This document shows, one piece after another, positions 3,177 to 61,568 of a stretch of 64,000 nucleotides of DNA. Source of the stretch: Octopus vulgaris. Lineage: Eukaryota. Made by a program: the position numbers and the translations under genes. Each line of letters starts with the position of its first letter. The first letter of the stretch is position 1. Where the stretch lies: positions 65,658,001-65,722,000 of the forward strand of contig OX597831.1 in assembly GCA_951406725.2 (NCBI GenBank), written 5' to 3'. Under the pieces are notes generated by a model. That model did no database searches, was not told the origin of the DNA, and was given only the letters and a program-made list of their open reading frames with translations.

Positions 3177-3646
3177 TATTTATATCATCGGCAGAAGTTA
3201 GAGAGTAAGCCAAAAGCGAGAGTTTCGTGTATTGGCACTTATCAAGCACGAATTTGTCCATTATCATTTTGTAACTTGTGACGAAATAACTTCTAAAATA
3301 CAAAATTTTGCCAAAAACGTTGAGAGTAAACCCTGTCCCATGTGACACATTCTACCAGTATCGGAAGCTTGTCTTTGCTGCAGACGAAGTAGGATTTGGA
3401 TATTTTAAACAATTCCCATTAAATAACTCCCATTGGTAGATATTTACAAGTAGTTATGGATTTCTCTACACCCAACGCTCTTGTTGCGGCCTTGTTAACT
3501 AAATTTCCTTTACATTCAGTCTGAAAATCATTGCTTAAACCAGACACAGGCATCCACTAAGATGCTGGATTACAAAACTAATTTCGAGAAACAAAAAGTT
3601 GCTGATGAATTTGGAAAAGGTGTCTGAATATTTGATAAAAATAATA

Positions 3647-4056
3647 GGCTCAGGCGTGGCTGTGTGGTAAGTAGCTTGTTTACCAGCCACATGGTTCCGA
3701 GTTAAGTCCCACTGCGTGGCACCTTGGGCAAGTGTCTTCTGCTATAGCCTTGGGCCGACCAAAGCCTTGTGAATGGATTTGTTAAACGGAAACTGAAAGA
3801 AGCCCGTCGCATATATATATATATATCTATATGTCTATATCCATGTGTGTGCATCTTTGTGTCTGTGTTCGTCCCCGCACCACCGCCTGACAATCCCCCG
3901 TGTTGGTGTATTTGCGACCCCGTAACTTAATGGCTCGACTAAAGAGGCCGATAGAATAAGTACAGGGCTTAAAAAATAAGTCCCGGGGCCGATTCATTCG
4001 ACAATCAAGTCAAGGCGGTGCCACAAATCTAATGACGGAAACAAGTAAAAGATAAA
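3647..4056 (+). mobile_element. SINE family B, full length
   Basis: tRNA-like head (ggcgtggctgtgtggtaag…gttaagtccc), ccttgggcaagtgtc core, internal (TA)n/(TG)n and gaaacaagtaaaaga tail; multi-copy in window. Confidence 0.9.
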
Positions 4057-4065
4057 ACATACAAG

Positions 4066-5330: not shown

Positions 5331-5699
5331 ATGATCCACAGCTGAATATTATATAATGGTTCTAAAAGAATTAATGATTAACCTTAGGAATTACAACCGT
5401 GTTTCGTGGTCTGCTACCGCAACAGCTCCTTTATAGGATCTGGTTAGCTCAAGACATCACCAGGAGGAACCCTTGAGCTAACTGGATCCTATAACTAATG
5501 GAAATAAAAAAACATACAGTCAACTCCGTAATGAAACTTTATTCAAAGAGTCAGCAATATTCTTAATTTTCAACCTTCTTGTGATTCAAACATTTTAAGG
5601 AATCGCAGCATCCGGTTAATTGTTAATTAAGATCATTAACAATTATAAAACAGGTTACATATAAAGCAGGTTACATATAAAACATACCTGGCAATATGT

Positions 5700-6085
5700 G
5701 TGGAAGCACTCCGTCGGTGACGACGACGAGGGTTCCGGTTGATCCGAATCAACGGAACAGCCTGGTCGTGAAATTAACGTGTAAGTGGCTGAGCACTCCA
5801 CAGACACGTGTACCCTTAACGTAGTTCTCGGGGATATTCAGCGTGACACAGAGAGTGACAAAGCCGGCCATTTGAAATACAGGTACAACAGAAAAAGGAA
5901 GTAAGAGTGAGAGAAAGTTGTGGTGAAAGAGTACAGCAGGGATCACCACCATCCCCTGCCGGAGCTTCGTGGAGCTTTAGGTGTTTTCGCTCAATAAACA
6001 CTCACAACGCCCGGTCTGGGAATCGAAACCGCGATCCTATGACCGCGAGTCCGCTGCCCTAACCACTGGATCATTACGCCTCCAC
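5700..6085 (-). mobile_element. SINE family C
   Basis: Reverse complement of 50472-50856; TSD acctggcaata at 5686-5696 and 6084-6094. Confidence 0.93.
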
Positions 6086-11573: not shown

Positions 11574-11959
11574 GTGGAAGCACTCCGTCGGTTACGACGA
11601 CGAGGGTTCCGGTTGATCCGAATCAACGGAACAGCCTGCTCGTGAAATTAACGTGTAAGTGGCTGAGCACTCCACAGACACGTATACCCTTAACGTAGTT
11701 CTCGGGGATATTCAGCGTGACACAGAGAGTGACAAGGCCGGCCCTTTGAAATACAGGTACAACCGAAACAAGAAGAAAGAGTGAGAGAAAGTTGTGGTGA
11801 AAGAGTACAGCAGGGATCACCACCATCCCCTGCCGGAGCCTCGTAGAGCTCTAGGTGTTTTCGCTCAATAAACACTCACAACGCCCGGTCTGGGAATCGA
11901 AACCGCGATCCTATGACCGCGAGTCCGCTGCCCTAACCACTGGGCCATTGCGCCTCCAC
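11574..11959 (-). mobile_element. SINE family C
   Basis: Near-identical to 45771 and 50472 copies; flanking duplication atattacagt. Confidence 0.93.
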
Positions 11960-12157
11960 AGGATATTACAGTAAATACCCAATGTCTATAAAGTGTTGAA
12001 GTTGAAATTCTTTTATTTCTGTGTTGCTAAATCAGGAAGTCACATGGAGGAAAAAAAACTATTCATGAACAACGATCAGATGCTTTCGTTTCGACGTCAT
12101 TCTACTTTTCTTCCATGTTAGCCCTGTTGACATATGTTTGCGCTCTACAGTCTTTTA

Positions 12158-18792: not shown

Positions 18793-19152
18793 TCACACGC
18801 ACACACACACACTCACACGCACGCACACACACAGGGTATAGGTGGTTGAAAGAGTATTGTGTCAGTGTATCTTGTTCGAAACCTCAGCAACATTCTTGCA
18901 CTTGCGCATGAAGAACATAGAGTTAAGTAAAGGCTTTACATATTTCATGCATTGAGCTTGAAATAATTTAAAATCTACATCTCTCATCTATGGAACAGAA
19001 CAAAACTTTGACATATATATGTTTACACGCACGCACGCACGCTCGCACACATGCACACACACTCACGCACATGCTCATACACACAGAGGTGTAAGCAGGT
19101 TCTAAAGTCAGAGGGGAGCAAGCACAAAATAAGGCACCGTGGCACATAACAA

Positions 19153-19517
19153 GGATCTTTTCGGTTTGAACAGCAGGTTTTTGTAGCGGTGTCATATGAA
19201 ATTGTCACCCATAATTATGACTCTAGTATCGATCTATTGCATTTCAATCTGTTTTAGGGTTAGGGGTGGGGGGAAGGGTATCTTTTTTCTTCACAAATGT
19301 AAATAAACCCAATCTGTTTCTTAAACGAGGGACATATTCATACGGCACAGAATGTTTTTTTACCTCAATAGACGTCATTGATTGGTTGAAATTGCAGAAA
19401 TTGAAGAAAAACAACAACAAATATCTTAGAAACCATAGAATTTTCTTAATAAAGCCAAGAGAAAAATGTTTTATAAACACATTCTACCAGTATACGAAGT
19501 TCAAACCGAAAAGATCC
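19153..19517 (+). mobile_element. MITE-1 (GGATC TIR, internal TTAGGG), internally deleted
   Basis: ggatcttttcggtttgaac…caaaccgaaaagatcc termini; degenerate 8-bp TSD. Confidence 0.9.
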
Positions 19518-23417: not shown

Positions 23418-23840
23418 GGCGCAGGAGTGGCTAGGCGCAGGTGTGGCTGTGTTGCAAGTAGCTTTCTTACCAGCCACATGGTTCTCGGTTCAGCCCCACT
23501 GTGTGGCATCTTGTGTAAGTGTCTTTTGCTATAGCCTCGGGTCGACCAAAGACTTGTGAGTGGATTTGGTAGACGGAAACTGAAAGAAGCTCGTCGTATC
23601 TACATATACGTGTGTGTGTGTGTGTTTGTTTGTGTGTCTGTATTTGTTCCCTTCACGCCATCGCTTGACAACCGATGCTGGTATGTTTATGTCCCCGTAA
23701 TTTACCGGTTCAGCAAAAGAAACCGATAGAATATGGACTAGGCTTACAAAGAATAAGTCCTGGGGTCGATTTGTTCGGCTAAAGGCGGTGCTCCAGCATG
23801 GCCGCAGTCAAATGACTGAAACAAATGAAAGAAGAAAAGA
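23418..23840 (+). mobile_element. SINE family B, full length
   Basis: Matches 32471 copy; short 5' duplication of ggcgcagg…tggct. Confidence 0.9.
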
Positions 23841-24381
23841 ACAGAGATATGATTCTATAATATTACATTATAATTAAGTATCTAATATATATGGTCTATC
23901 AGAATTCCGATAATATATACTTTTGGTTTTTATATAGGAATAATTTATTATCTATATATTTGTATATACACCTAAAAACTAGTAGCGTATATATATGTGT
24001 TTATTCACATATATCTGTTATATGTATGTGTGTATGTCAGAGTATAAAGATATTATATTACATGTTAAAAAATTAAATTGATTAAATTAAATTAATTGTA
24101 ATATTTTTGTGATATTAATTAAAGTTAATCAAGATTGTTATTAATAAATTCATTGTGCAGAGATGGAATATTTCGTGACTGTATAAAATTATTGTATTAC
24201 GTTAACGGATTATTTGATATTGAAGAAACAACAAGCTTATCACTATCGAAGGTTGCCTGTTTATATAGTAATTATATTAATAAATCAATTGTCTTACAAT
24301 TCTATTTATATGAAAATTATAAACTATATGTTTTTACTTTATTACAGTATATTACTTTGCATGTATCTATTTAATATATGA

Positions 24382-31758: not shown

Positions 31759-32470
31759 ATAAAATATGAATATTGTATAATATATCGAATGATAGTTTTT
31801 TAAAAAATTTGAAGTAAAATTGTAAAATGGTGTTTGTTTGAAATGTAAAATAAAAATTAAAAATTAAAAATTACTACTTTTGACGAGAGTCTTTAAATCC
31901 ATATATGTTTCCTTGGTTATTCTACTGCGATAATCCATAATATTCATACTCAAAATCTGTCATATTATCTTATATTCTAGTATAGTTCATATAGTTAGTT
32001 TAGAAATGTGAAAATTGTATATACTTTAGTATGAGAGTCTTGAAATCCATATGTCTTCTTGGTAGCCTTACTGCAATTAGTTACATTTATTTACATTCTG
32101 TGACTGATTTTCCTGAATTGACCTTGCCTCTCATTTCGTATGATCGATAGTACCAGTCATATTCTGGAGTCGATTTAATCAGTTATGATTAGATACAGCA
32201 TGCAGTTTTGTATGTCTTCATAAGAAATCAATACATTTAAAAACAGAAACTCACACATTATTTCTCACCTCTTAAGTGTTTCTTTACACGATTTTTAAAA
32301 TGATTTTATATTTCAGTCCTATTTGTTATTTCCATTTATTTCCAAGTTATAATAACTTTAAAAAAATGATGGCATAACTTAAATGATATAGTTAATTTAT
32401 GCTTATAAATAACTAAAAAATTAATTCAGTGAAAATGCAGTAAAATTATCATTTATAAGATAAACATATA

Positions 32471-32885
32471 GGCGCAGGAGTGGCTGTGTGGTAAGTAGCT
32501 TGCTTACCAACCACATGGTTCCGGGTGCAGTCCCACTGCGTGGCATCCTGGGCAAGTGTCTTCTGCTATAGCCTCGGGCCGACCAATGCCTTGTGAGTGG
32601 AATTGGTAGACGGAAATTGAAAGAAGGCCGTCGTATATATGTATATATATATATATGTGTGTGTGTGTATACGTTTGTGTGTCTGTGTTTGTCCCCCTAG
32701 CATTGCTTGACAACCGATGCTGGTGTGTTTACGTCCCCGTCACTTAGCGGTTCGGCAAAAGAGACCGATATAATAAGTACTGGGCTTACAAAGAATAAGT
32801 TCTGGGGCCGATTTGCTCGACTAAAAGCGGTGCTCCAGCATGGCCGCAGTCAAATGACTGAAACAAGTAAATGAGTAAAAGAGAG
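32471..32885 (+). mobile_element. SINE family B, full length
   Basis: A-box-like tggctgtgtgg, B-box-like ggtgcagtccc, ctgggcaagtgtc core, internal microsatellite. Confidence 0.92.
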
Positions 32886-33594
32886 TATGATCTATTTCGT
32901 AAAGGCCTGGAAAGCCAAGTTGAGTATTTAACTGAGGGGTGAAGATAGATTGTGTTTGTAACTGGAGCTGCTCTCTGGATATGGTCAAGCCACTAAGTTT
33001 TAAATGTCTCAGTTTTTCAAGGTGTAAATAAAAGAATGAAAATACCTTTAAGCTCCGAAAAGGCTTTTAAGTACAGGTTCTTTAAGTCAATTTTTTTGGA
33101 ATGAAGCAATTAATTGAAAGATAAGTTATCCCTGTCGAACTTGGTAGAATATACAATAAGTAAGAGAAAGCTCTATTGCACACGCAGCAATGTTGCATCT
33201 GACAAGAATATTCCGATCAAGGAAATAAGAAACAGATGTAGTTCACAAGAAGAAAACCGAGCTCAGAATTTGTCATGTCAGGTAAATTAGAAGGCATGGA
33301 TTGTAGGCTTAATTCGTCACTCGGTTTAACAGCACATACTGATCTTTGGGTAACTTAGCAGAGTCAAGTGTCTTGCCAGTGTTCTGGTCAAGTGTCCAGT
33401 TTGAGAATCTCTTCCTTCCACCAAAATCAGAGGCAGTGAGAAAAGCTATAAATGTTGCCCTTTCTACTCTGAGTTACGTAAAACAAAGAACATGGGTTTC
33501 GCCAAAGTCCTGAAATTCGAAGAACTGGTGAGAGACATAAGAAAGTAAAGTTTCCGATAGATATGGGTCTGCACAGAGCGATACTTGAAGTAAC

Positions 33595-36124: not shown

Positions 36125-36541
36125 GGATCTTTTCGGTTTGAACGGCAGTTTTTTCTAGCGGTGTCATAAAAAATTGTCACCCATAATTATGACCCTAGTA
36201 TCGATCTATTGCATATCAATCTGTTTTAGGGTTAGGGTTTGGGTGGGGGGAAGGGTATGTTTTTTTCTTCACAAATGTAAATAAACCCAATATGTTTCTT
36301 AAACGAGGGACATATTCATACGACACAGAATGTTTTTTTTTACCTCAATAGACGTCATTGATTGGTTGAAATTGCAGAAATTGAAGAAAACAACAACAAA
36401 TATCTTACAAACTATAGAATTTTCTCAATAAAGCCAAGAGAAAAATGTTTTATAAACACATTCTACCAGTATACGAAGTTTAAAAGTGTTTAGTTACGTG
36501 GAAATTATTTTAAAAAACTGCCGTTCAAACCGAAAAGATCC
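36125..36541 (+). mobile_element. MITE-1
   Basis: Full TIRs and internal ttagggttaggg; no clear TSD. Confidence 0.92.
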
Positions 36542-36680
36542 CTTGCGTTCGGATTGACATAGAATTACGTAACTTTTTACTTAGAACCATTTACTTGCAA
36601 TGGAATTAGAAACGGAGTGGTACTGAAACAATTGTTACTAACAATAAAGATGTATTTAAATCATGTCTCGTGTGTGTGTT

Positions 36681-36739
<59 letters not shown>

Positions 36740-36955
36740 ACGTGCGTAATATATGCAAAGTGAAACATATTTCAGAATATACAAAGTAGTAGTCTTGTAA
36801 AGTAGAAATATTTATTTAGCAAAAGGCTTTTTAAGCTCATTCGGTTTCACCCAGTCCAGTCATAATGGTCGAACTCACATCACCAGGGGAAACAACTGCT
36901 ATGCACATGGAGTATGCACGATGACAAGTTCAACATGTACCTGGTATGCATGTAT

Positions 36956-37020
36956 TAGGCGGCGAGCTGGCAGAAACGTTAGCACGCCGGGCGAAATGCG
37001 TAGCCGTATTTCGTCTGCCG
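36956..37020 (+). mobile_element. SINE family A 5' head, interrupted by Tx1 LINE
   Basis: Head continues at 42371. Outer TSD ggtatgcatgtat at 36943-36955 and 42723-42735. Confidence 0.93.
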
Positions 37021-37182
37021 CACATGTGTTCGTGGTAAGAATTGCTGTTTCTTGGTGTTAATATTGTTAATAACTGTTGTTTCTTGTTAAACTGTTGAAT
37101 AACTTAACTGTTGGAGTTTTCAATTGAAAACACTTAGTGCTTGTGGTAGCACGCGTTGTTCATTCCCCCTCTGGGGGGAAGA

Positions 37183-38713
37183 ATGTCGTCTAGCATGGAG
37201 CCTACCGTTGGAGCAGAAATACTTGTTTCTCCTGTTGAGAGGAGGAAATACATGTCCGGCGAGGAGCCAACTACAGACAAGGAAATAGGGGTTTCCCCCG
37301 CTACAAGAAGGAATAGCAGAGAGGATAATATATTTGATATTTTTGGAGATGTGTCTGAGAGCTCGTCAGAACTTTCACCAGAAGAGTTTCCGACTTTGCC
37401 AGAGAACAAAGGCATTGTGTCGAAGAGAATAATTGATGTACTTAGCATCCAGATAGAACCAAAAAATGGAAAAAAAAGTTTTGCATTGGCTGCTGGGGGT
37501 GGAACCCGGATACTGTCGACGAATAAAAGCGACTTTATGAAATACAGCCAAATGATGAAAATAACTGACAACGGTGTGAAAATTGAACCTCCACAAAAGT
37601 TATTACAAGAAGAAAAGCAAAAAACAATAATTTTCAAAACATATCGTCTACAAAAAAGAAAAATTGAAAGAATGTCAGAAGAGAAAATAGAAAAGTGCTT
37701 AAAGCCAATATTGGGCGACGTAGTATTTCTGAGAAGAGGAAAAAAAATTCGGAACGGTGGAAGTAAGGTTCACCAATAAAGAAATAGCACACAAGAACTC
37801 AGTTGAAACGCTGAAAACGAACGACGTGGAGCTCATCCCCTATTATATGGAGATGAGGACGTCGAGAATAAAAATTACAAGAGTCCCGCCAGAGGTCGAA
37901 CCTATGTGGTTGTTGGCGGCAGTCCTAATCAAAGAGGTAGAAAAAATTACTCTCCTCCAGGCTACCGCTACGGAAAACCCACGCTGGGATGGTCAAACAA
38001 TTAATCTTCTCATTCAAGCGGACCCTAAAATAATTCAAGCTATTCCCGAGACAATTGAGGTAGGGGAGGAGAACCTCGTGGTGTTTGTTGAGGGCCGAAA
38101 ACCTCGATGTTTTTTATGTGGTCAATTAGGCCACATTCGAAGGAACTGCAAGGAAAATGAAGAAGAGGAGGAAGAGGAGAAAAAAGACAAAGAGGAAGAA
38201 GATAAAGAAGAAACAGATGAGAAAAAAACAACAAACAAAAGAAAAATACAACCGGCAACCCAGCCGAGAGCGGTGACTACTACAGAACAACGACCAAAAA
38301 AGACTGCCAGAAGAGAAAAAGAAGAAAAAGGCATAATAGCCGTATACACTAAAGATACTGAGCTCATGAGAGACATTCAACTGATAAAGACTGTAAAAAA
38401 AATAGATAACCTTTCAGAGGAATTTATCAATTACGACATATATGAAGTCTCAAATAAGACTTATAGAATTCTACAAAATAAATACAGAAAGACTGTATCT
38501 TCATTGAGATTAGATTTTAACAAGTCGATATTTCATGGATTACCAGCCCCGATCCCGCGAGAAAAGGAAAAGGTGGAGATTCCCCCTCCACCTGATAATT
38601 CTGTGTCGGTGGTGAGACGGGATTTTGACAAATCTATTTCCCAAGACCGTCCACCTCCGACCCTGGATCAAAAAAAGGTGGAGGGTCCCCCTCCACCGGA
38701 CAATCCTGATTAA
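37183..38713 (+). pseudogene. LINE ORF1 (CCHC zinc-knuckle nucleic-acid-binding protein), one frameshift
   Basis: Removing one A from the A8 run at 37740-37747 fuses ORFs 37156 and 37757 (RRGKK-FGTVEVRF); CFLCGQLGHIRRNC knuckle. Confidence 0.85.
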
Positions 38714-38724
38714 ACAGGTAAGTC

Positions 38725-41700
38725 ATGGCTATTCACATTGGTTGTTTAAATGTTCATGGCCTGTTGTCAAGCTGGAAGCAAGGACGCTTTCTAAATGACA
38801 TCAGGTCGAGAAATTTGGATGTAATTGTTGCAACGGAAACCCGGGTGAAGGGGCCAAGAGATCTGCTCCCCCTCCTGAACGGCTACGAGAAATACATTTC
38901 TCCGAGTCGGGCGGGAGGTGGGGGTGGGGTGTTGGTCCTACTAAAAAGAAACCGGGTAGCCGAGAAAAAGTTGGTTTTTTCTGACCCAGAAGGCAGGCTG
39001 GTCGTTCTCGACTTGACATTCAGTTGTGGCAAGACAATCAGGCTGGTCGCTATTTACGCACCAAACATTATTGGCCCGCAAACTGAATATTTTCGTGGCC
39101 TAGGAAAGTTCTTAGCCACGTCGCATTCACTAGTAGTGTTAGGAGACTCTAATACAATATGTGCAGCACACACAGATTGTGTTGGCTCAAACTCGAACAT
39201 GAACAGAAAATGTAACCCAGGCTTTCGGGATCTGCTAAATCAATTTCAGCTAGCAGATCCATATAGGTTGGCGCACCCGAACACTCCACAGTGGACGTGG
39301 TCAAATAGTGACGGGTCTACCAGAACATATCTAGATAGGATTTTAATTAGAGAAAAAGGTAAGTCCATAGTTGAGTGTCCACAGTTTTTTCTAGTCAGCT
39401 ACAGTGACCACAAGATGGTTACCTGTAAACTGACGGTAGATAAGTTGCATAGACAGGGATCTGACTACTGGAAACTCAATACGTCCCTTTTGGCGATTGA
39501 GGAGTACAGAAAGCGGATCAAGATGTTAATACAGAGGGCATTAACAGGTACCATCATTAATAACAAATGGTGGTACGCCCTAAAAAGTGCCATCAAATAT
39601 GAGTCTATTAGGTTTAGCATAAGTTTAGCTAAGAAGGGACGTAAAATAGGAGATGGTCTAGTTAAGGAACTAGAAGAAGCCTGGAGGACTGGTAATACAG
39701 ACCAAGCGAGGGTGAAAAGACTGGAGTTAAACCAGCATCTTGAAGCCCACCACATGGGAAGTATTACCAGAGCTAAGTTACGTGCAATGGGAAGTGAAGG
39801 AATCAAAGCCGCTGGATGGGCCCGAGTGGTGGAAGCTCGGCAAGGAAATAGTTCCTCTATTCGGTCTTTGACGAATCAAAATGGTGTCTTGGTAAACGAA
39901 CCCGAGAAAATGTGTGAGGTCTTTCGGGAGTACTTCGCTCAGAAGTTCGGGGGTGACGGCGGTCCTGGTGGTGGGAGAGCCCTCGAGGACTTTCTTACCG
40001 GGCTGCCGTGCCTCTCGGGGTCGGATGCGGAGTCTTGCGAAGGGTCAGTCACACCTGAGGAGGTGATGGAGGCTTTGGCCGATTGTAAAGCGGGTAAGTC
40101 ACCGGGACTTGATGGTCTTCCGTACGAGCTGTATAAATGTATGCCAGACTTGTTCGGGCAACTACTGACTGACGTGTACGCGAACTGGAAACAGAATGGG
40201 TTTATCCCCAGATCTGTGCGCCGGGGAGTAGTGACGTTGGTCAGAAAGGACCCGGACAAGGGGGACGTTCTAGAGAATTTCAGGCCCATCACTCTGTTAA
40301 ACGCAGAAGTGAAGATTTTGGCCAAGGTTCTAGCAAAAAGGTTGGCGCGTGTCGCGAATGGTATAGTCGGGGAGGCACAGACATGTGCCATCCCAGGCAG
40401 AACCATTCAGGATACCCTCCATCTTATTCGCTATACCATAGAGAGGGTTGGTAATAAATCTGGCAAAGGTGGGGCATTGGTGCATTTGGACCAGTCTAAA
40501 GCTTTTGATAGGGTTGACCATCGATACCTAGCGACTGTACTTGCGCGGTTTGGCCTGGGCCTTGGCTTCCTCAGGTGGTTTATCGCTTTGTACCACAACA
40601 TTGACTCGATAGTTCGGGTGAACGGTTTCCTTTCGAAGCCGTTCTCCATCAGACGCTCGGTTCGTCAAGGATGTCCGCTTTCACCACTTTTGTATGTGAT
40701 GGCTCTCGAGCCATTACTGCAAAGGTTGAGTGGCATCCCGAGAGAACCAGGACTAGAGGAGTTTGTTACGGCTTTCGCGGATGATATCACTATCAGTGTG
40801 ACCACAGTAGCACGCCTACGTGAAGTAGGTAAGACTATTGAGGCTTACGAGGAGGTAGCAGGAGCAAAGATTAACCGGGAAAAGTCGGTCGGCTTGCAGC
40901 TCGGCACCTGGGTTGGCAAGTCGATGCCTTCAGACAGTGTTGTTAGGCGCTGGACGGAGGGACCGGTTAAGTTGCTGGGAGTCTGGTTTGGACCAGGCCT
41001 CCAGATAGAGAAGAACTGGACGGAGATATTGAGCAGGGTGGCTGCAGTAGTCAAGACCTGGATAGGTGGCTATCCCTGAAAGGGAGGGCGGAGGTGGCCA
41101 ATGTGTTTATCGCATCGGTCATTACCTACCGCCTGACCGTCGTGCCCTGTCCGGATTCGTGGTTGATCAGGTTGGAGAGACAGCTCTTTCGCTTTTTGTG
41201 GAAGGGCAGGTCGCCACTTGTGAAACGCTCTGTCTGCTGTCAAAAGCCTTTAAAGGGAGGTTTAGGGATGCCTTGGTTAATGATGCGCAGACATGCGTTG
41301 AGGTTGAGGCACCTCTGGATTCTCCTGGATAGTGAACGGGTGTGGTCTCCGCTAGCCAGACAAATGTTCCCTGAGTTCAAGAGTTTTTGCGAACAGGAAG
41401 CCTGGTGTTCTCGTAGACCGAGGTCGAGTGAGTGGCATAAAGAGTGCCGTAAGGCCCTTTTGCTGTTCCGGCGCTCGGGCAACGCCAGCGGTGGGGGTTC
41501 CACACGGATTTTATATAGAGTCTGAATGCGACGATGGCCTGGGGTCGACTCTAGGTCTCGGATTTATTCAACTGGACAGCTTGTTTCATCGTACATTCGG
41601 GTTGAGAACGTTGGACAACTTCCAAAAGTCCTTAACCTGGCAATGCTACAGAGGTGCCTTGCCCGTTTGGGATAAGCTCGCAAGACATGGTAAACGCCAG

Positions 41701-42111
41701 TCGCCGACCTGTCCAAGATGCGGTGGGGACAGGGAAACCGTCCCTCACGCTATTGTTCAGTGTCCGGAGATAACTGAAATGTGGGCTTATGCTGAACATC
41801 TGTTGTCCGGCGAAGGAAGAGTACGGCTGTCGACTGAGTCAATTATAAAAATTGACCCACCGGGAGTTCTAACGAACGAAGGTAAGAATTGTTTTCTCAC
41901 GGTTGTAGCAATAGCAAAAGAGGCAGTATGGAAGATTAGGATAAAAGGAATTAAGACAGGCAACTTTATCTCTGGTGACAATTTACGATCCTTTTTTTCT
42001 TTTCATTTGAAAAGGAAACTGTGGCTGGAGAAGAGGTGTCTGTCAGAGTGTACGTTCCAAAAGAGATGGAAGTATGTTGCACGAGTGTTGTGCGTGCAAG
42101 GAACCGTGTGA
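38725..42111 (+). pseudogene. LINE ORF2: APE endonuclease + reverse transcriptase + C-terminal zinc knuckle, two frameshifts
   Basis: EN motifs CLNVHGL, TET, YAPN, GDSN, YLDR, SDH; RT motifs PGLDGL, FRPITLLN, DQSKAFDRVDH, RQGCPLSP, FADD; CPRC…H…C. Frameshifts near 41060 and 41520. Confidence 0.93.
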
Positions 42112-42370
42112 ATAGACGAGGAAAAAAAAAGGAAAAATAAAAAGGTATCAGCGGTAGATCGGGGCTTGTGGGATCGGAGCGTAACTTGATCATCGCTTCA
42201 TTTGTATTGTTTTTGTACTGTGTATTCCATACGATGTTTGTGTATTGTATTTTATTTTTGAAGTCACATTTATGTAAAATCATATCGATTCACTGATCCC
42301 ATCAGTTGTACTGTCCATATCTATGTTTGGCCCCCGGTGGGCAATAAAGAAATTCGTATTTCGTCTGCCG

Positions 42371-42722
42371 TTACGTTCAGAGTTCAAATTCCGCCGAGGT
42401 TGACTTTGCCTTTCATCCTTTCGGGGTCGATAGATTAAGTACCAGTTACGCACTGGGGTCGATATAATCGACTTAATCCGTTTGTCTGTCCTTGTTTGTC
42501 CCCTCTGTGTTTAGCCCCTTGTGAGTACTAAAGAAATAGGTATTTCGTCTGCCGTTACGTTGTGAGTTCAAATTCCGCCGAGGTCGACTTTGCCTTTCAT
42601 CCTTTCGGGGTCGATAGATTAAGTACCAGTTACGCATTGGGGTCGATATAATCGACTTAATCCGTTTGTCTGTCCTTGTTTCTCCCCTCTGTGTGTAGCC
42701 CCTTGTGGGTAGTAAAGAAATA
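42371..42722 (+). mobile_element. Two tandem SINE-A bodies (42371-42538; 42539-42722)
   Basis: Each ends aaagaaata; the second restarts at ggtatttcgtctgccg, the same site as the LINE TSD. Confidence 0.92.
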
Positions 42723-42800
42723 GGTATGCATGTATGTGTCCGCGTATGTATCTGTGGGTCTATGTGTACGTGTTCAAATATATATTCACATACATATTAC

Positions 42801-43118: not shown

Positions 43119-43350
43119 AAGGCGGCGAGTGGCAGACACGCCAGCGCGCCGTCCGAAATGCTTAGCGGTATTTCGTCTGCCGTTACGTTCTGAGTTCAAA
43201 TTCCGCCGAGGTCGACTTTGCCGTTCATCTTTTCGGGGTCGATAAATAAAGTACCAGTTTCGCACTGGGGTCTATGTAATCGACTTAATCCTTTTGTCTG
43301 TCCTTGTTTGTCCCCTCTATGTTTAGCCCCTTGTGGGCAATAAAGAAATA
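43119..43350 (+). mobile_element. SINE family A, full length, Tx1-type tail
   Basis: Degenerate TSD atattcgagcgaat / atattccggcgaat. Confidence 0.92.
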
Positions 43351-43973
43351 CATATTCCGGCGAATCTAACACTACATCAATAGCTCAATGATCATGATAG
43401 TGTTAAAAGCTAACATTTTTCACATTCAATCCTATGTATTTCTCACCAATTTAGAGTGTATCGATGTGTAAAGGATATGTTTGCGTATTTCTTTGATTAG
43501 CTTCATATACGCTATTAGGTGTCTGATCGTCAAATAGGCTGGATAATGTTTACCTGCTGACTAGATTTACACGATATATTGAATGACGTCAGATAACCAT
43601 GGCGACTGTCATGTCCTTAGCTGACGATTGAAAGACTGACTATGCACAGAAAAATCGATGACTATTACTTGCGTGCTTTATATCGATATTGTTGCTAAAC
43701 CACTCATGGTATCGTGAAAGTAAAAGACAAGCGAAAAATTGCTGTGTTCTTCCAATTTAGTTTGTGTTTTCGATTCAAATATTTATAGCAACAGGGATTT
43801 TAGCTTCTGCTAACCTTACTTCTTATAAGTCTTTTCTATCCTTACACTCGTTGTAGAAGATCATTCACATATGGGGTATTCATGACACTTCTAAAATGTA
43901 CACTTTTATCCTAAAACGTATACACTTAGATATATTTATATTATTAACAACTGAATTATTTAAGTAAAAGATG

Positions 43974-44389
43974 GGATCTTTTCGGTTTGAACGGCAGTTT
44001 TTTAAAATAATTTCCACGTAACTAAACACTTTTAAACTTCGTATACTAATAGAATGTGTTTATAAAACATCTTTTTCTCTTGGCTTTATTGAGAAAATTC
44101 TATAGTTTGTAAGATATTTGTTGTTCTTTTCTTCAATTTCCGCAATTTCAACCAATCAATGACATCTATTGGGGTAAAAATCATTCTGTGCCGTATGAAT
44201 ATGTCCCTCGTTTAAGAAACAGATTGGGTTTATTTACATTTGTGAAGAAAAAAAGATATCCTTCCCCCACCCCTAACCCTAACCCTAAAACAGATTGAGA
44301 TGCAATAGATCGATACTAGGGTCATAATTATGGGTGACAATTTCATATGACACCGCTAGAAAAAACTGCCTTTCAAACCGAAAAGATCC
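43974..44389 (-). mobile_element. MITE-1
   Basis: Full TIRs, (ccctaa)3, partial TSD aaaaga. Confidence 0.92.
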
Positions 44390-44490
44390 AAAAGAATTAA
44401 TACTAAATAGATAACATGTATTTAATTTTGTGTAATGTTTCCTACGTTTTTATCTTGTATGCAAAAATATTTCAGTATTCACTCAGAAAG

Positions 44491-45372: not shown

Positions 45373-46258
45373 TGAATGTACTTTATGCACTTCCACAAAT
45401 TAGCATGCATGTCGCTCCAATTTTAGGAGGACATTGGTCACGGCCATCGCTGTGCTTTTGTCAACTCATTTTCCCCGCGGCACTCCCGGATAGCGGTAAA
45501 AATAGCTTTTCAACCATAACTTTTACCAATTTTCACGTCAGTGAAATCCGTAAGATTGCTAGTTAAGTCCCCTGTCTTATAGATTAATTCACCCTACTAC
45601 AACGCCTCCGAAAATAAAACAGATTTGAACTTCCTAAGTAATCTCAGCATAGAAAAAGAGAGAGAGCTGAAGAGACTGACTATCAGCAGACCCATTAGTA
45701 AAATATTATAACTTTTTGAACTGAAACCTGGCAATAAGAGCTTGTGGATATTCTGCTACAAAACATTCATGTGGAGGCGCAATGGCCCAGTGGTTAGGGC
45801 AGCGGACTCGCGGTCATAGGATCGCGGTTTCGATTCCCAGACCGGGCGTTGTGAGTGTTTATTGAGCGAAAACACCTAAAAGTTCCACGAGGCTCCGGCA
45901 GGGGATGGTGGTGATCCCTGCTGTACTCTTTCACCACAACTTTCTCTCACTCTTACTTCCTGTTTCTGTTGTACCTGTATTTCAAAGGGCCGGCCTTGTC
46001 ACTCTCTGTGTCACGCTGAATATCCCCGAGAACTACGTTAAGGGTTCACGTGTCTGTGGAGTGCTCAGCCACTTACACGTTAATTTCACGAGCAGGCTGT
46101 TCCGTTGATCGGATCAACCGGAACCCTCGTCGTCGTAACCGACGGAGTGCTTCCATCCACAAAACATTCAATAATATCGAAGCAGTAACTTTCATAAATC
46201 AGGGTGTAATCTTTGAAGACTCTTTCTGAACCCAGTCAACGACGGGTATTTCTGCTAG
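45303..46258 (+). mobile_element. Non-autonomous Helitron-like element containing a SINE-C
   Basis: A|TCtatatctataaaa start; 3' hairpin acccagtcaacgacgggt then CTAG|T. Confidence 0.65.
45771..46158 (+). mobile_element. SINE family C
   Basis: tRNA-like head (tggcccagtgg A box, ggtttcgattccc B box); TSD acaaaacattca at 45758-45769 and 46159-46170. Confidence 0.94.
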
Positions 46259-47572: not shown

Positions 47573-47984
47573 GGATCTTTTCGGTTTGAACAGCAGTTTT
47601 TAAAAATAATTTCCACGTAACTAAACACTTTTAAATTTCGTATACTGGTGGAATGTGTTTTTAAAACATCTTTTTCTCTTGGCTTTATTGAGAAAATTCT
47701 ATAGTTTTTAAGATATTTGTTGTTTTTTTTCTTCAATTTCTGAAATTTCAACCAATCAGTGACGTCTAATGAGGTAAAAAAACATTCTGTGCTGTATGAA
47801 TATGTCCCTTGTTTAAGAAACAGATTGGGTTTATTTACATTTGTGAAGAAAAAAGATACCCTTCCCCCCACCCCTAACCCTAAAATAGATTGAAATGCAA
47901 TAGATCGATACTAGGATCATAATTATGGGTGACAATTTCATATGATACCGCTAGAAAAAACTGCCGTTCAAACCGAAAAGATCC
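47573..47984 (-). mobile_element. MITE-1 inside the pogo transposase
   Basis: TSD caaatggc / caaatgga. Confidence 0.93.
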
Positions 47985-48399
47985 CAAATGGATGATGCTC
48001 CCACATAAGCTAACACTAACAAGTCGGGTGAAGAAGCCAACGATAGTTCAGGTTTGCCAGCGGGGAAAAAGTATTTGAGATGCAGTTAAAACGGAAACAG
48101 TTTTACGATCTTTTAAGAAATGTGGCATTAGCAATTGCTTCGATGGCGCAGAAGATGGTCTTTAATACGAGGAATCTGACACCTCTGACACAGATAGCAT
48201 TGATGACTCGAGGAGGAGGGTACGGATAGAGATAACAACAACAGTGAATTTGATGAGCGTTATGATGATGGTAAGTAATGGCTTGGTGGTGGGGCTTTGA
48301 AAATTAATAAAAAATATTTCAGTATTCTCACTTTTATCATAGAAAAATAATACCGTTTCATAATTTCTCGTGTTTTATAAGTTTTTATAAATAAAAATT

Positions 48400-48816
48400 G
48401 GATCTTTTCGGTTTGAACGGCAGTTTTTTCTAGCGGTGTCATATGAAATTGTTACCCATAATTATGACCCTAGTATCGATCTATTGCATTTCAATCTGTT
48501 TTAGGGTTAGGGTTAGGGGTGGGGGAAGGGTATCTTTTTTCTCTCCAGAAATGTAAATAAACCCAATCTGTTTCTTAAACGAGGGACATATTCATACGGC
48601 ACAGAATGTTTTCACATCAATAGACGTCATTGATTGGTTGAAATTGCAGAAACTGAAGAAAAACAACAACAAATATCTTACAAACTATAGAATTTTCTCA
48701 ATAAAGCCAAGAGAAAAAGATGTTTTATAAACACATTCCACCAGTATACGATGTTTAAAAGTGTTTAGTTACGTGGAAATTATTTTAAAAATCTGCCGTT
48801 CAAACCGAAAAGATCT
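48400..48816 (+). mobile_element. MITE-1
   Basis: TSD taaaaatt / taaaaatg. Confidence 0.93.
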
Positions 48817-49209
48817 TAAAAATGAAATGAAATATTTAATCGTACTATAAATATGATCCTCATGATTCCCTGTTACTTGTATTTACTAGCAATACATAAT
48901 ACATTACGTATCGCAATTCTCACAAATTTGTGGGAAAATAGCATAAAAAATATAGATATTTAAGTAAACATATTTTGATCACTAAGACGGTTTAAACTAC
49001 GGTAAATATTCAACCGTACTTTTTCGTTACCGAAGTTCTTTTGGCGCTACAATTGCCGCCACCATGTTTGTTTACAAGTGATGACGATGATGATGGTGTG
49101 AATTGCTTGAATATTAGGGGTGGTAGTTAGTAATGCCAGCAGTGCAGATTGATTATGTTAATGGTGATTCTTGATAGTTTTAGTGTTGCTGCTTGGTAGT
49201 AGTTAATGG

Positions 49210-49640
49210 GGATCTTTTCGGTTTGAACGGCAGTTTTTAACATAATTTCTAGGTAACTAAAAAATTTTAAACTTCGTATACTGGTAGAACATCTTTTTCT
49301 TTTGGCTTTATTGAGAAAATTCTATAGTTTGTAAGATATTTGTTGTTTTTTTCCTTCAATTTCTGCAATTTCAACCAATCAATAACGTCTATTGAGGTAA
49401 AAAAACATTCTGTGCCGTATGAATATGTCCCTCGTTTAAGAAACAGATTGGGTTTATTTACATTTGTGAAGAAAAAAAAGATACCCTTCCCCCACCCCTA
49501 ACCCTAACCCTAACTAACCATAACTAACCCTAACCCTAAAACAGATTGAAATGCAATAGATCGATACTAGGGTCATAATTGTGGGTGACAATTTCATAGG
49601 ACACCGCAAGAAAAAACTGCCGTTCAAACCGAAAAGATCC
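49210..49640 (-). mobile_element. MITE-1 with expanded CCCTAA array
   Basis: Perfect TSD gttaatgg. Confidence 0.94.
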
Positions 49641-50471
49641 GTTAATGGTATTAACGATGGACAATACTGGTGATGGTGAAGGTCAGTTGTAATATTTGGG
49701 AGTGTTAAAGCAAGTATTGTAACTTATCCTTCCATAATAACTTGCCAAAAGGCGTCAGTCTAAATGTTAATGGTTTCCATACATGAAAATATGTGAGACA
49801 TTCAGCTAGGGGATCTTGGGTCAGCTGCAGTTTTTTCCCCCGCAGATTAGGCCTGTCAAAATTGGGGTGCCTTCTTATATGCCCGAAAATATGGTATATT
49901 CGAACCAACGACGGATTAATCTGGTAGCAAGTGTAGCATATGCTACGGGCTCTACATTTCCAGTGAACCTACTTTAAATGATTTAATATTGTAATACCGG
50001 ACTGCTTTCAACTTTTCGACTGACTATTTATCTAAGGCAGGTCCAATACATTTTAACTTAAATGAATGGCAACGGTAAATAGACAGACTTACTTCATTTT
50101 AGTTGGATGCTAACAAATAGATTTGCTATCCCATTCCTCTATCTCAACACATGAAATTCAACACACAATAACTGAAAGTAATTACTATTTGCCTCATAAA
50201 CAGGACTGGTTGAATCAATTAGATTATCATTAATATTGTATAGACTCGGTAATGTTAACCAACCTCATTAAATCGGGATTTTTTTTACGGCTGACAACCA
50301 CAGCATATTTACGCAGTTTCTACTCAAACTTTCTGCTCTTAATCGAAACTGTAGCACGAGTTTCGATTAACAGTCACATTTTCAACGTTAGGCCACAAAA
50401 CTAATTTACGTTCGATTAAAGGTGTATACCAGGAGAACATATTTAACTTGTGCATCTTACAAGCTTAAGTA

Positions 50472-50856
50472 GTGGAGGCGCAATGGCCCAGTGGTTAGGG
50501 CAGCGGACTCGCGGTCATAGGATCGTGGTTTCGATTCCCAGACCGGGCGTTGTGAGTGTTTATTGAGCGAAAACACCTAAAAGCTCCACGAGGCTCCGGC
50601 AGGGGATGGTGGTGATCCCTGCTGTACTCTTTCACCACAACTTACTCTCACTCTTACTTCCTGTTTCTGTTGTACCTGTATTTCAAAGGGCCGGCCTTGT
50701 CACTCTCTGTGTCACGCTGAATATCCCCGAGAACTACGTTAAGGGTACACGTGTCTGTGGAGTGCTCAGCCACTTACACGTTAATTTCACGAGCAGGCTG
50801 TTCCGTTGATTCGGATCAACCGGAACCCTCGTCGTTGTAACCGACGGAGTGCTTCC
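50472..50856 (+). mobile_element. SINE family C
   Basis: 13-bp TSD acaagcttaagta at 50459-50471 and 50857-50869. Confidence 0.95.
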
Positions 50857-51739
50857 ACAAGCTTAAGTAACTATCCGGTCGTGCTGCTTACACGGATTCC
50901 CGTGATTCTCTATCGCCATACTCTTTTAATGTTTGAATTAAGTGCTTGAGTCATAATGGATCTTTCATTAACTGATTACACAACCATAGACCCCGCCCTT
51001 ATGGATGTGTTGCAGTTAATCTCTTGATAGAGCTTGGTGATCCTAACCATTGAATTTCTAGGATCAATCTGCTCAACATCACTGTAAGAAGCATCGTTGG
51101 CTCAGTTGAGCTCATCGGCTGTCTCTTCATATTCAACAGTCCCATGACTTTGCCATATCTTTGGCTGAACGACTGCTAGGCCTTGCCGAAGGGCAGCCAG
51201 TAACCATGCAGAGCACGGTCGACACTCCGTGAGGTATGTTCAAAATACCTACAAACCTTAAGTAGCAATGATATACGTATAAGTGAATTCGAGCAATGAT
51301 CGAAGCATTTAAGTATTGTGTTTTTCGTTTTGCTTTAAAATGTAATCACGATATTCAGAGAAATGATACACCTATTCAAATTCGCCATATAATTTACCGT
51401 CCAAATCGCCGTCTTCCTGAATTAATCTTAATGTCTCAAACACGTCAACTTGCAGGTAAACATAATTTTAGGCAAAACAATAAATAGTGGATCCATGTAT
51501 TCATTTCTTTATCTCTACTCGCATGTCACCTGATCTATGTACTTTGATCCTTGAAATATACTGTTGAATTCCTAATGATACTATTCAACTCTTTGCTGGA
51601 ATAGATCAAATAAATCAAATAACCGGCCTGTATAGCTCCCATCTACATACTTGAAATATTCAATTGGTTTTGTAAAAATTATTCAATAAAGTTCCTTGGA
51701 TTTTAATTTAGGGCCCCTTTCTAAACATGTGCAAAAGGT

Positions 51740-52167
51740 GGATCTTTTCGGTTTGAACGGCAGTTTTTTCTAGCGGTGTCATATGAAATTGTCACCCATA
51801 ATTATGACCCTAGGATCGATCTATTGCATTTCAATCTCTTTTAGGGTTAGGGTTAGTTAGGGTTAGGGGTGGGGGGAAGGGTATCTTTTTTTCTTCACAA
51901 ATGTAAATAAACCCAATCTGTTTCTTAAACGAGGGACATATTCATACGGCACAGAATGTCTTTATTTACTTCAATAGACATCAGTGATTGGTTGAAATTG
52001 CAGAAATTGAAGAAAAAAAACAAATATCTTAAAAACTATAGAATTTTCTCAATAAAGCCAAGAGAAAAAGATGTTTTATAAACACATTCTACCAGTATAC
52101 GAAGTTTTAAATTTTTTAGTTACCTAGAAATTATTTTTAAAAACTGCTGTTCAAACCGAAAAGATAC
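51740..52167 (+). mobile_element. MITE-1
   Basis: Perfect TSD caaaaggt. Confidence 0.94.
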
Positions 52168-52900
52168 CAAAAGGTTCCTCGACTGATTTAATGCAGCTTT
52201 CAGTTGAATACTTGGTGTCTGTAATGTCACCTATGACGACTATCACCTGAAAACGTCACCTCTCTAACAAGCAATTTTTTTAATATGCTTACTCTTACCT
52301 CAACTGAACTCCCTAATCCAGTGTTCATTTATGGCTCGTGGAACTCTACCCATACCATGTTTTCTTGATATACAGGCATTGTTCATTTAATGCCATCTTG
52401 TTTAACGTCATTATTTCCTTATAACGACGAAATGACGGGAAAAATAATGTAAACCCACTTTCATTCTACACTTTTCAAAACGAATGTTTGTTTCCTTTTA
52501 CTTCCTTGTGGAACTTATTGCATTTTCAATCCAGTAAAATTAAATAAATACGCAACTAGTAATTCAATTTTTATATTTACTTTACGATCGTCAACAAAGA
52601 TACAATTTTTATTCACCTTACTATCTTATAAGGTACGTCATATAAAATAAACGATGAGAATCAAAGAAGGAAATTGCATTAAATAGATATAAATCGATGC
52701 ACTTCTACATCAGAGACTATTTGATCTTTCTTAGATGTGCTGTGCGATTTGCTAGGAAAAGTTTGCTTTTCTGCGCTTTATTAAATAAAAATTGGGATAA
52801 AGAAATACATAAAAGCAAAGGAGCAAATGCACGAAGTACAAACAAAGCGGACGGACAACCAGCTACTTCGAAACTTGTCTGATTCAAGGCCAGTTGGTTA

Positions 52901-53478
52901 TTATTACCTCCGTCTTAGCGAAAGCGGAGGTATTGTTTTCAGTCGTGTTTATTTGTCCGTGGACAAGATATCTCAAGAACAGCTGGATGGATTCGGATAA
53001 AACTTTCGGATCTTTTCGGTTTGAACGGCAGTTTTTCTAGCGGTGTCATATGAAATTGTTACCCATAATTATGACCCTAGTATCGATCTATTGCATTTCA
53101 ATCTGTTTTAGGGTTAGGGTTAGGAGAAAGGGTATCTTTTTTTCTTCACAAATGTAAATAAACCCAATCTGTTTCTTAAACGAGGGACATATTCATACGG
53201 CACAGAATGCTTTCTCACCTCAATAGACGTCATTGATTGGTTGAAATTGCAGAAATTGAAGAAAAACAACAACAAATATCTTACAAACAATAGAATTTTC
53301 TCAATAAAGCCAAGAGAAAAAGATGTTTTATAAACACATTCTACCAGTATACGAAGTTTAAATTTTTTTAGTTATCTAGAAATTATATTAAAAACTGCCG
53401 TTCAAACCAAAAAGATCCAAACTTTCATAGACATTTGGCCTCGTGACTGGCACGAACTAATTAGGTTTTGGGATCTGT
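52901..53478 (+). mobile_element. Helentron/HINE-like non-autonomous fragment interrupted by MITE-1
   Basis: ttattacctccg…cggaggtattg terminal hairpin, then gatatctcaagaac…gatggattcggataaaactttc, typical of these elements. Confidence 0.55.
53008..53418 (+). mobile_element. MITE-1
   Basis: Perfect TSD aaactttc. Confidence 0.94.
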
Positions 53479-61175: not shown

Positions 61176-61568
61176 GCGCTGGAGTGGCTGTGTGGCAAGT
61201 AGCTTCCTTGCCAGCCACATGGTACCAGGTTCAGTCCTACTGCATGGTACCTTGGGCAAGTGTCTTCTACTATAGCCTTGAGCCAACCAAAGCCTTGTGA
61301 GTGGATTTGTAAACTGAAAGAAGCCTGCCGTATATATATATATATATATAATGTGTGCGTGTGTATATGTTTGTGTGTCTGTGTCCCCCAACATCACTTG
61401 ACAATCGATGCTGGTGTGTTTACGTTTCTTTAATCTAGCGGTTCGGCAAAAGAGACCGATAGAATAAGTACTAGGCTTACAAAGAATAAGTTCTGCGGTT
61501 GATCTGCTCGATTAAAGGTGGTGCTCCAGCATAGCCGCAGTCAAATGACTGAAACAAGTAAAAGAATA
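61176..61568 (+). mobile_element. SINE family B, full length
   Basis: Matches the 32471 copy. Confidence 0.9.

What the first reader, a model, noticed from the sequence alone, without database searches (positions are those of the whole stretch)
42320..42353. LINE and SINE-A share a 3' stem-loop + AATAAA tail (31/34 nt)
LINE end tctatgtttggcccccggtgggcaataaagaaat vs SINE-A end (43316-43349) tctatgtttagccccttgtgggcaataaagaaat. The GCCC/GGGC stem is intact; two of the three differences are in the 5-nt loop and one is just 5' of the stem. Neither ends in poly(A). Tail-sharing (stringent) recognition is typical of CR1/L2/RTE partners, whereas mammalian L1 relies on poly(A). A Tx1-clade LINE with a tail-sharing tRNA SINE would be a less commonly described pairing.
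Basis: partly seen in the sequence, partly recalled or inferred. Interest (0 to 1): 0.8.

Follow-up and report, generated by a model that had tools for sequence, protein, structure and literature searches.

The report
LINE targets its own partner SINE
A jumping gene (LINE) in this animal genome shares its tail with a very abundant short repeat (SINE) and has landed at one fixed base of that repeat in nearly every copy examined, so it likely both copies the repeat and uses it as its landing site.

Summary
The 31/34-nt match is real and not a local chimera: 30 of 30 other-copy 3' ends carry the tail, as do sister LINE families only 64-72% identical in protein, so the tail is LINE-derived. 9 of 12 5'-truncated copies abut the SINE head at different breakpoints; LINE ends are 99.1% alike, the following SINE bodies 91.7%: independent, site-specific insertions. 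The SINE (at least 89,110 copies) has at least 18,015 tail-to-body junctions at the same base. The scan noted SINE-targeting LINEs in other genomes before, not with a shared tail. Mobilisation of the SINE is inferred, not assayed.

The parts
36943..36955 (+). Left 13-bp target-site duplication of the host SINE (begins GGTAT)
   Evidence: Read from the sequence; same 13 bases at 42723-42735
36957..37020 (+). 5' head of the host SINE-A (A-box-like motif, recalled consensus), cut off from its body by the LINE
   Evidence: Aligns to heads of other SINE-A copies at 85-92%
37005..37020 (+). Left copy of the 16-nt target repeat; in other copies largely inherited with the LINE rather than copied from the target
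37021..42355 (+). Full-length L1-group (Tx1-like) LINE, 5.3 kb
   Evidence: Boundaries fixed by other copies
37183..38713 (+). ORF1 with a CCHC zinc knuckle, split over two frames in this copy
   Evidence: PF00098, E 5e-5
38725..42111 (+). ORF2: APE endonuclease, reverse transcriptase, zf-RVT; two frameshifts in this copy
   Evidence: 98.5% identical to an unbroken natural copy, L099
42292..42307 (+). Upstream hairpin of the LINE 3' UTR, absent from the SINE tail
   Evidence: Predicted fold; alignment
42320..42353 (+). Tail shared with SINE-A (the finding)
42355..42370 (+). Right copy of the 16-nt target repeat; SINE body resumes here
42356..42538 (+). Body and tail of the host SINE-A (B-box-like motif near 42380-42392, recalled consensus)
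   Evidence: 92% to the copy at 43168-43350
42539..42722 (+). Second, head-less SINE unit starting at the same target base
   Evidence: junction type counted genome-wide
42723..42735 (+). Right 13-bp target-site duplication of the host SINE
43119..43350 (+).

Best explanation
This L1-group LINE lineage has inserted at one fixed base inside the head of a SINE family, and SINE-A carries the 3' tail of this LINE clade, so the clade's enzyme likely both copies SINE-A and uses it as its landing site. Shown: the shared tail, the fixed site, independent insertions, and SINE tail-to-body junctions at the same base. Inferred steps: (1) the endonuclease nicks just 5' of GTATTT and reverse transcription starts in the shared tail; (2) the LINE RNA begins inside the upstream SINE head, and this head-derived 5' end pairs with the target, which explains why the left 16-mer follows the LINE subfamily rather than the target; (3) targeting is older than SINE-A: it began on sister SINE 'B' (same head and body, other tail), and SINE-A arose when a B copy took on about 45-65 nt of a clade member's 3' end; (4) SINE-A RNA is then copied into loose GGTAT/RTAT-like genomic sites and into the fixed site of other SINE copies, giving head-less 184-bp arrays that may also grow by DNA-level duplication.
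For: Tail in 30 of 30 3' ends. 66 of 67 distinct 3' ends at the target base, 62 of 67 with clear SINE body after it. 29 of 30 full-length 5' ends follow a SINE head plus the 16-mer, each in different flanking DNA. 9 of 12 5'-truncated copies abut the head at nine different LINE positions, one holding only the last 41 nt. One off-target copy keeps the tail and has its own 10-11 bp duplication at a similar motif (L108). LINE ends 99.1% vs following SINE 91.7%, correlation 0.00, 23 loci. Left and right 16-mers identical in 9 of 30; a T at position 14 is in 14 left copies and in 1 of their right partners. SINE-targeting LINEs form one clade, 99/100; sister families share the tail but have other neighbours. 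Older members: 7 of 13 in SINE B, 3 in A; young: 13 of 17 in A, 2 in B. 18,015 and 218 exact SINE junctions at the same base. Free-SINE duplications found in 12 of 45, several starting GGTA or ATAT; the window's own starts GGTAT.
Against: No mobilisation or cleavage assay. The clade is small next to the SINE (85 exact tails vs 89,110) and most SINE copies are dispersed, so a looser relative may have made most of them; the protein search had 23,389 first-look candidates of which 150 were scored. The window subfamily's tail scores 45.5 against SINE tails, below L156 (62.1) and the differently targeted L141 (56.4). No covariation in the stem. Array units are more alike within (0.934) than between arrays (0.906), and G-type junctions outnumber C-type 80-fold though heads are about 55:45, so most junctions need not be separate insertions. 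2 of 12 young truncated copies and 3 older ones show no head upstream. Duplications not found in 33 of 45 free SINEs.
Confidence: 0.72

Rival explanations
1. The LINE targets the SINE and the tail is clade-derived, but SINE-A was spread mostly by a sister family with a looser target choice; the SINE-targeting subfamily is a tenant that contributed little.
For: Tail shared by all sampled sister families; the SINE's upstream 20 nt align better to L141-type 3' UTRs than to the window LINE; sister families have many identical unbroken ORF2 copies; copy numbers 85 vs 89,110.
Against: The best tail match sampled is L156, a SINE-targeting member; the SINE ends like the SINE-targeting clade; SINE junctions and several free-SINE duplications start at the LINE's target motif, while the sampled sister families are followed by other sequences.
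Confidence: 0.2
2. Head + LINE + SINE body is one composite element that moves as a unit through the SINE's own tail; there is no targeting.
For: Full-length copies nearly always show both SINE halves, and the left 16-mer is inherited with the LINE.
Against: Truncated copies abut the head at nine different breakpoints; downstream SINE bodies are far more diverse than the LINE ends and uncorrelated with them; both SINE A and SINE B follow the same LINE.
Confidence: 0.04
3. The 34-mer is a SINE remnant or template switch local to this copy, or the LINE took its tail from the SINE it sits in.
For: The tail directly precedes a SINE array in the window; one older LINE copy carries the SINE's commonest tail variant, so local conversion may occur (L156).
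Against: All copies carry it with LINE-specific bases; sister families with no SINE next to them carry it; the tree puts those families outside the SINE-targeting clade.
Confidence: 0.04

Closest known systems
Tx1-Mar LINEs with SINEU in crocodilians (Kojima 2015, PMC4494074; passages, sections 16 and 18 read)
   Same: Target-specific L1/Tx1-group LINE and a SINE that share an insertion site inside another repeat; tandem SINE insertions at the site; some LINE families carry a SINE-like 5' end; co-transcription from the target proposed.
   Different: There the target is a third element (Mariner-N4), SINEUs end in poly(A), and no LINE sharing the SINEU-1 3' end was found. Here the target is the SINE itself and the tail is shared.
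Tx1L in Tx1D (Xenopus); Keno, Kibi, Koshi (as cited in the introduction of PMC4494074)
   Same: APE-type LINE with a fixed site in a multicopy sequence.
   Different: Targets are a DNA transposon, U2 snRNA genes or microsatellites, none of which depends on the LINE.
L1-clade SINE/LINE tail pairs: ZmSINE2/3 with LINE1-1_ZM, SINEX-3_CR with L1-1_CR (Ohshima 2013, PMC3747384; passages and Table 1 read)
   Same: L1-group LINE with a conserved 3' end of about 45 nt shared with a SINE.
   Different: Plants and algae; the monocot hairpin shows compensatory changes, this one does not; no targeting of the SINE in the passages read.
R2 in 28S rDNA (as described in PMC4494074 section 18; junction mechanism recalled)
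   Same: Transcription from the upstream target, and target sequence at the RNA's end aiding precise insertion.
   Different: R2 has a restriction-like endonuclease and targets an essential gene.
SINE-derived satellites of squamates (PMC10702118, passages) and tandem SINEs of bivalves (PMC11481361, passages)
   Same: Tandem arrays of SINE parts.
   Different: Explained there by unequal recombination; here the unit boundary coincides with a LINE's insertion site.

Membership tests
L1 group of non-LTR retrotransposons | ORF1 plus ORF2 with N-terminal APE endonuclease, RT and C-terminal zinc domain | tested here: met
   Pfam PF00098; PF03372, PF00078, PF13966; unbroken 1133-aa natural copy
L1 group of non-LTR retrotransposons | ORF2 closer to L1 than to other solved retrotransposon proteins | tested here: met
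   Human L1 ORF2p E 1.9e-64 over residues 5-867; R2 1.6e-20 over RT only. The PDB lacks most other clades.
Tx1 clade | RT groups with named Tx1 elements in a tree | not testable with these tools
   No named Tx1 sequence came; hits are unnamed
Tx1 clade | Target-sequence preference for a multicopy sequence | tested here: met
   66 of 67, far above the 20% criterion in PMC4494074
Stringent (tail-sharing) SINE/LINE pair | SINE 3' end homologous to the LINE 3' end across copies | tested here: met
Stringent (tail-sharing) SINE/LINE pair | Conserved stem-loop with compensatory changes | tested here: inconclusive
   91.5% of cells paired in the tail helix but no double change; not above shuffles
Stringent (tail-sharing) SINE/LINE pair | Tail needed for retrotransposition and SINE copied in trans | not testable with these tools
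   Needs a reporter assay
tRNA-derived SINE | Head homologous to a tRNA with A and B boxes | tested here: inconclusive
   ARAGORN and Rfam find nothing; best z 3.1 and 5.3, to different isotypes, among 27 tRNAs from 30 loci; box motifs by recalled consensus only
tRNA-derived SINE | Short, non-coding, dispersed, high-copy, flanked by target-site duplications | tested here: met
   89,110 exact tails; duplications in 12 of 45 and in the window
Octopus OK/OR1/OR2 SINEs (Ohshima and Okada 1994; not read) | Sequence match to the published families | not tested
   Only citations seen; resemblance recalled

The most novel reading that the evidence does not exclude
A closed loop between two mobile elements: the LINE's enzyme multiplies the SINE, each new SINE is a fresh safe landing site and 5' leader for the LINE, and each LINE insertion splits the SINE's promoter boxes. 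The target became the passenger when an older SINE captured the tail of the LINE clade that targets it.
Probability: 0.4. Interest if true: 0.78.

Novelty: new variant of a known kind. Interest (0 to 1): 0.62.

Why it matters
Target-specific Tx1-like LINEs and tail-sharing SINE/LINE pairs are each known; a LINE lineage that does both with the same SINE did not turn up in my searches. It would be an animal L1-group case of tail-sharing, it would tie one of the genome's largest repeat expansions and its tandem arrays to one enzyme lineage, and the sister families with the same tail but different neighbours give a natural series for studying how APE endonucleases change target.

Tried and rejected
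Local chimera, composite element and LINE-took-tail-from-SINE: rejected. Stem-loop covariation: none (16 rows, 13 LINE and 3 SINE); my impression of a covarying upstream hairpin was not borne out (1 double change, 54% paired, alignment poor there). Folding energies not above shuffles. AATAAA as shared signal: not conserved. ARAGORN and Rfam: no tRNA match; Rfam hits were microsatellite noise. One search used a mistyped pattern (299 matches) and was replaced. The 3'-end count (93 of 116) caught SINE tails and was replaced. Duplication search (6 of 24) stopped early in arrays. Protein searches gave no named Tx1 relative. Sequencing runs: no RNA holder listed, so expression is open. Nine paper searches found no description of this pair or of a LINE targeting its own tail-sharing SINE; Repbase, Dfam, subscription journals and supplements were not seen and may hold it. 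No earlier scan notes for this genome or sequence.

Full report
Observation. The core motif occurs 6 times in the window against 0.45 expected.

Anatomy in the window. The LINE runs from 37021 to 42355: ORF1 with a zinc knuckle, ORF2 with APE, RT and zf-RVT domains, each broken by frameshifts in this copy. A self-comparison shows a SINE-A head ending at 37020 and the SINE body resuming at 42356, with the same 16 bases on both sides (37005-37020, 42355-42370). A second, head-less SINE unit follows (42539-42722). The whole host SINE has its own 13-bp duplication (36943-36955, 42723-42735). So the LINE lies inside a SINE-A copy, between its A-box-like and B-box-like motifs (consensus recalled). 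The genome has 2.8 Gb; I take it to be an octopus from recall of the repeat, which no call confirms.

Is the tail the LINE's own? A search with the 3' region upstream of the tail gave 40 scored matches; all 30 loci fetched carry the tail (one with a short deletion), two of them being neighbouring duplicates. The LINE-type 35-mer has 49 exact copies. A protein search found sister families at 64-93% identity. Of 20 loci fetched, 19 had a C-terminal match shown; 18 of these end in a recognisable version of the tail, L155 with an insertion in it, and L153 has lost its 3' end. Families at 64-72% identity carry the tail and are followed by unrelated sequences. The tail is therefore ancestral to the LINE clade, and the SINE is the likely recipient.

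Target specificity. 29 of 30 3' ends are followed by the SINE motif at the same base. Over all loci held, picked by LINE sequence only, the count is 66 of 67, with clear SINE body after 62. 29 of 30 full-length 5' ends follow a SINE head and the 16-mer; the 30th has a head with a deletion. Among 20 further regions, 12 were 5'-truncated with an intact 3' end: 9 abut a SINE head at nine different LINE positions, 2 have unrelated DNA upstream, and 1 is off-target with its own duplication. Three older truncated copies showed no head in the 45 bases before the aligned part. In 23 of 30 loci with a full SINE body, the last 170 nt of the LINE are 99.1% alike and the next 170 nt of SINE 91.7%, uncorrelated. 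These are independent insertions into pre-existing SINE copies. In a tree of ORF2 C-termini (26 rows; L104 dropped for too short a match) the SINE-targeting copies form one clade with L153 (99/100). Older members sit more often in a sister SINE with the same head and another tail (7 of 13 in B, 3 in A), young ones in SINE-A (13 of 17, 2 in B), so targeting likely predates SINE-A. Contigs of runs labelled as three other organisms also run from the LINE tail into the SINE motif, by 31 bases in one and 12-13 in two; whether they are distinct species is not known.

The 5' junction. If the two 16-mers were a plain target duplication they would share each site's variants. They are identical in 9 of 30 pairs; 14 left copies have T at position 14, and only 1 of their right partners does; targets with substitutions mostly face a standard left copy. 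One pair shares a variant at position 8. I infer that the LINE RNA starts in the SINE head and that this end pairs with the target, as discussed for target co-transcription in PMC4494074 (section 18).

Does this clade move the SINE? The SINE has at least 89,110 tails and at least 18,015 plus 218 exact tail-to-body junctions at the LINE's base. Among C-type junction arrays most have the C-type head, which fits repeated origin at the site. Free SINE ends are followed by T-A-N-R-T-A-T in most of 46 cases, and duplications were found in 12 of 45, several starting GGTA or ATAT. Against a simple reading: units are more alike within arrays (0.934, 53 pairs) than between (0.906, 392 pairs); G-type junctions dominate although heads are 21,013 G-type to 17,209 C-type; the SINE-targeting clade has only 85 exact tails; and the window subfamily is not the best tail match (45.5, against 62.1 for L156 and 56.4 for L141). 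The partner is best stated as the clade, with an older SINE-targeting member the leading candidate.

Structure. The 34-mers fold into the same hairpin at -8 kcal/mol, not beyond shuffles. In 16 aligned tails RNAalifold keeps only the 4-bp stem: 11 one-sided changes keep pairing, 4 break it, none is compensatory. The extended helix is 91.5% paired but no measure exceeds shuffles. AATAAA is in 60 of 200 SINE tails. Sequence conservation is shown; a structural requirement is not.

Comparison with the known. ORF2 is L1-group; Tx1 membership could not be tested. The closest system is Tx1-Mar with SINEU (PMC4494074: passages, outline, sections 16 and 18), where LINE and SINE share a third element as target and no shared tail was found. 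Ohshima 2013 (PMC3747384: passages and first part of the tables) lists 3 L1-tailed SINEs among 58 pairs, in plants and an alga. Passages of PMC11481361, PMC4758252, PMC4824008, PMC8967140 (L1-Tx1 and SINE expansions in octopuses) and PMC10702118 do not describe this pairing. Nine searches found no report of it; Repbase, Dfam and supplements were not seen. Earlier scan notes record SINE-targeting LINEs in other genomes (unchecked).

Verdict. Real. A new variant of known kinds: a target-specific L1-group LINE lineage whose target is a SINE carrying that clade's tail. Targeting is shown by genomic evidence (about 0.95); mobilisation of the SINE by this clade is inferred (about 0.85 for the clade, lower for the SINE-targeting branch). 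Interest 0.62.

Noticed in passing
L141:5680-6000, L142, L144: A very young sister family (many identical 1132-aa ORF2 frames) is followed by the same repeat sequence in 3 of 3 loci, forms tandem pairs 5.26 kb apart, and has another LINE family's similar tail stacked at the same site upstream. Target unidentified.
   Followed up: partly
L145, L146, L147, L148: Further sister families in head-to-tail arrays (four copies on C22) with their own recurring 3' neighbours: probably more target-specific families with the same tail.
   Followed up: no
L093:4487-4600; L024, L077, L106, L134, L161: A second insertion site in the SINE head, inside the A-box-like motif, used by a sister LINE and by SINE tails.
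   Followed up: partly
L158, L160, L154; loose ends at 42473: Sister SINE 'B' shares head and body with SINE-A up to window position 42473 and has a different 3' part; its LINE partner was not sought.
   Followed up: partly
L091, L094: Insertions of only the last 41-45 nt of the LINE into a SINE head, without duplication: minimal tail-only products.
   Followed up: partly
L096: Truncated LINE whose upstream SINE part runs about 40 nt past the target base and has a different head variant: possibly a template jump onto SINE RNA.
   Followed up: no
window 19152-19505, 36125-36542, 43967-44394, 47573-47988, 48391-48815, 49209-49641, 51740-52171, 53003-53425: A 420-bp repeat with terminal inverted ends and internal telomere-like units, 8 copies at 84-95%; looks like a MITE.
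   Followed up: no
window 5699-6085, 11574-11963, 45767-46155, 50472-50859: A 388-bp repeat in four copies at 96-98%: a young dispersed element.
   Followed up: no
window 3634-4057, 23432-23858, 32459-32895, 61176-61568: A second, longer SINE-like family (about 430 bp, central microsatellite).
   Followed up: no
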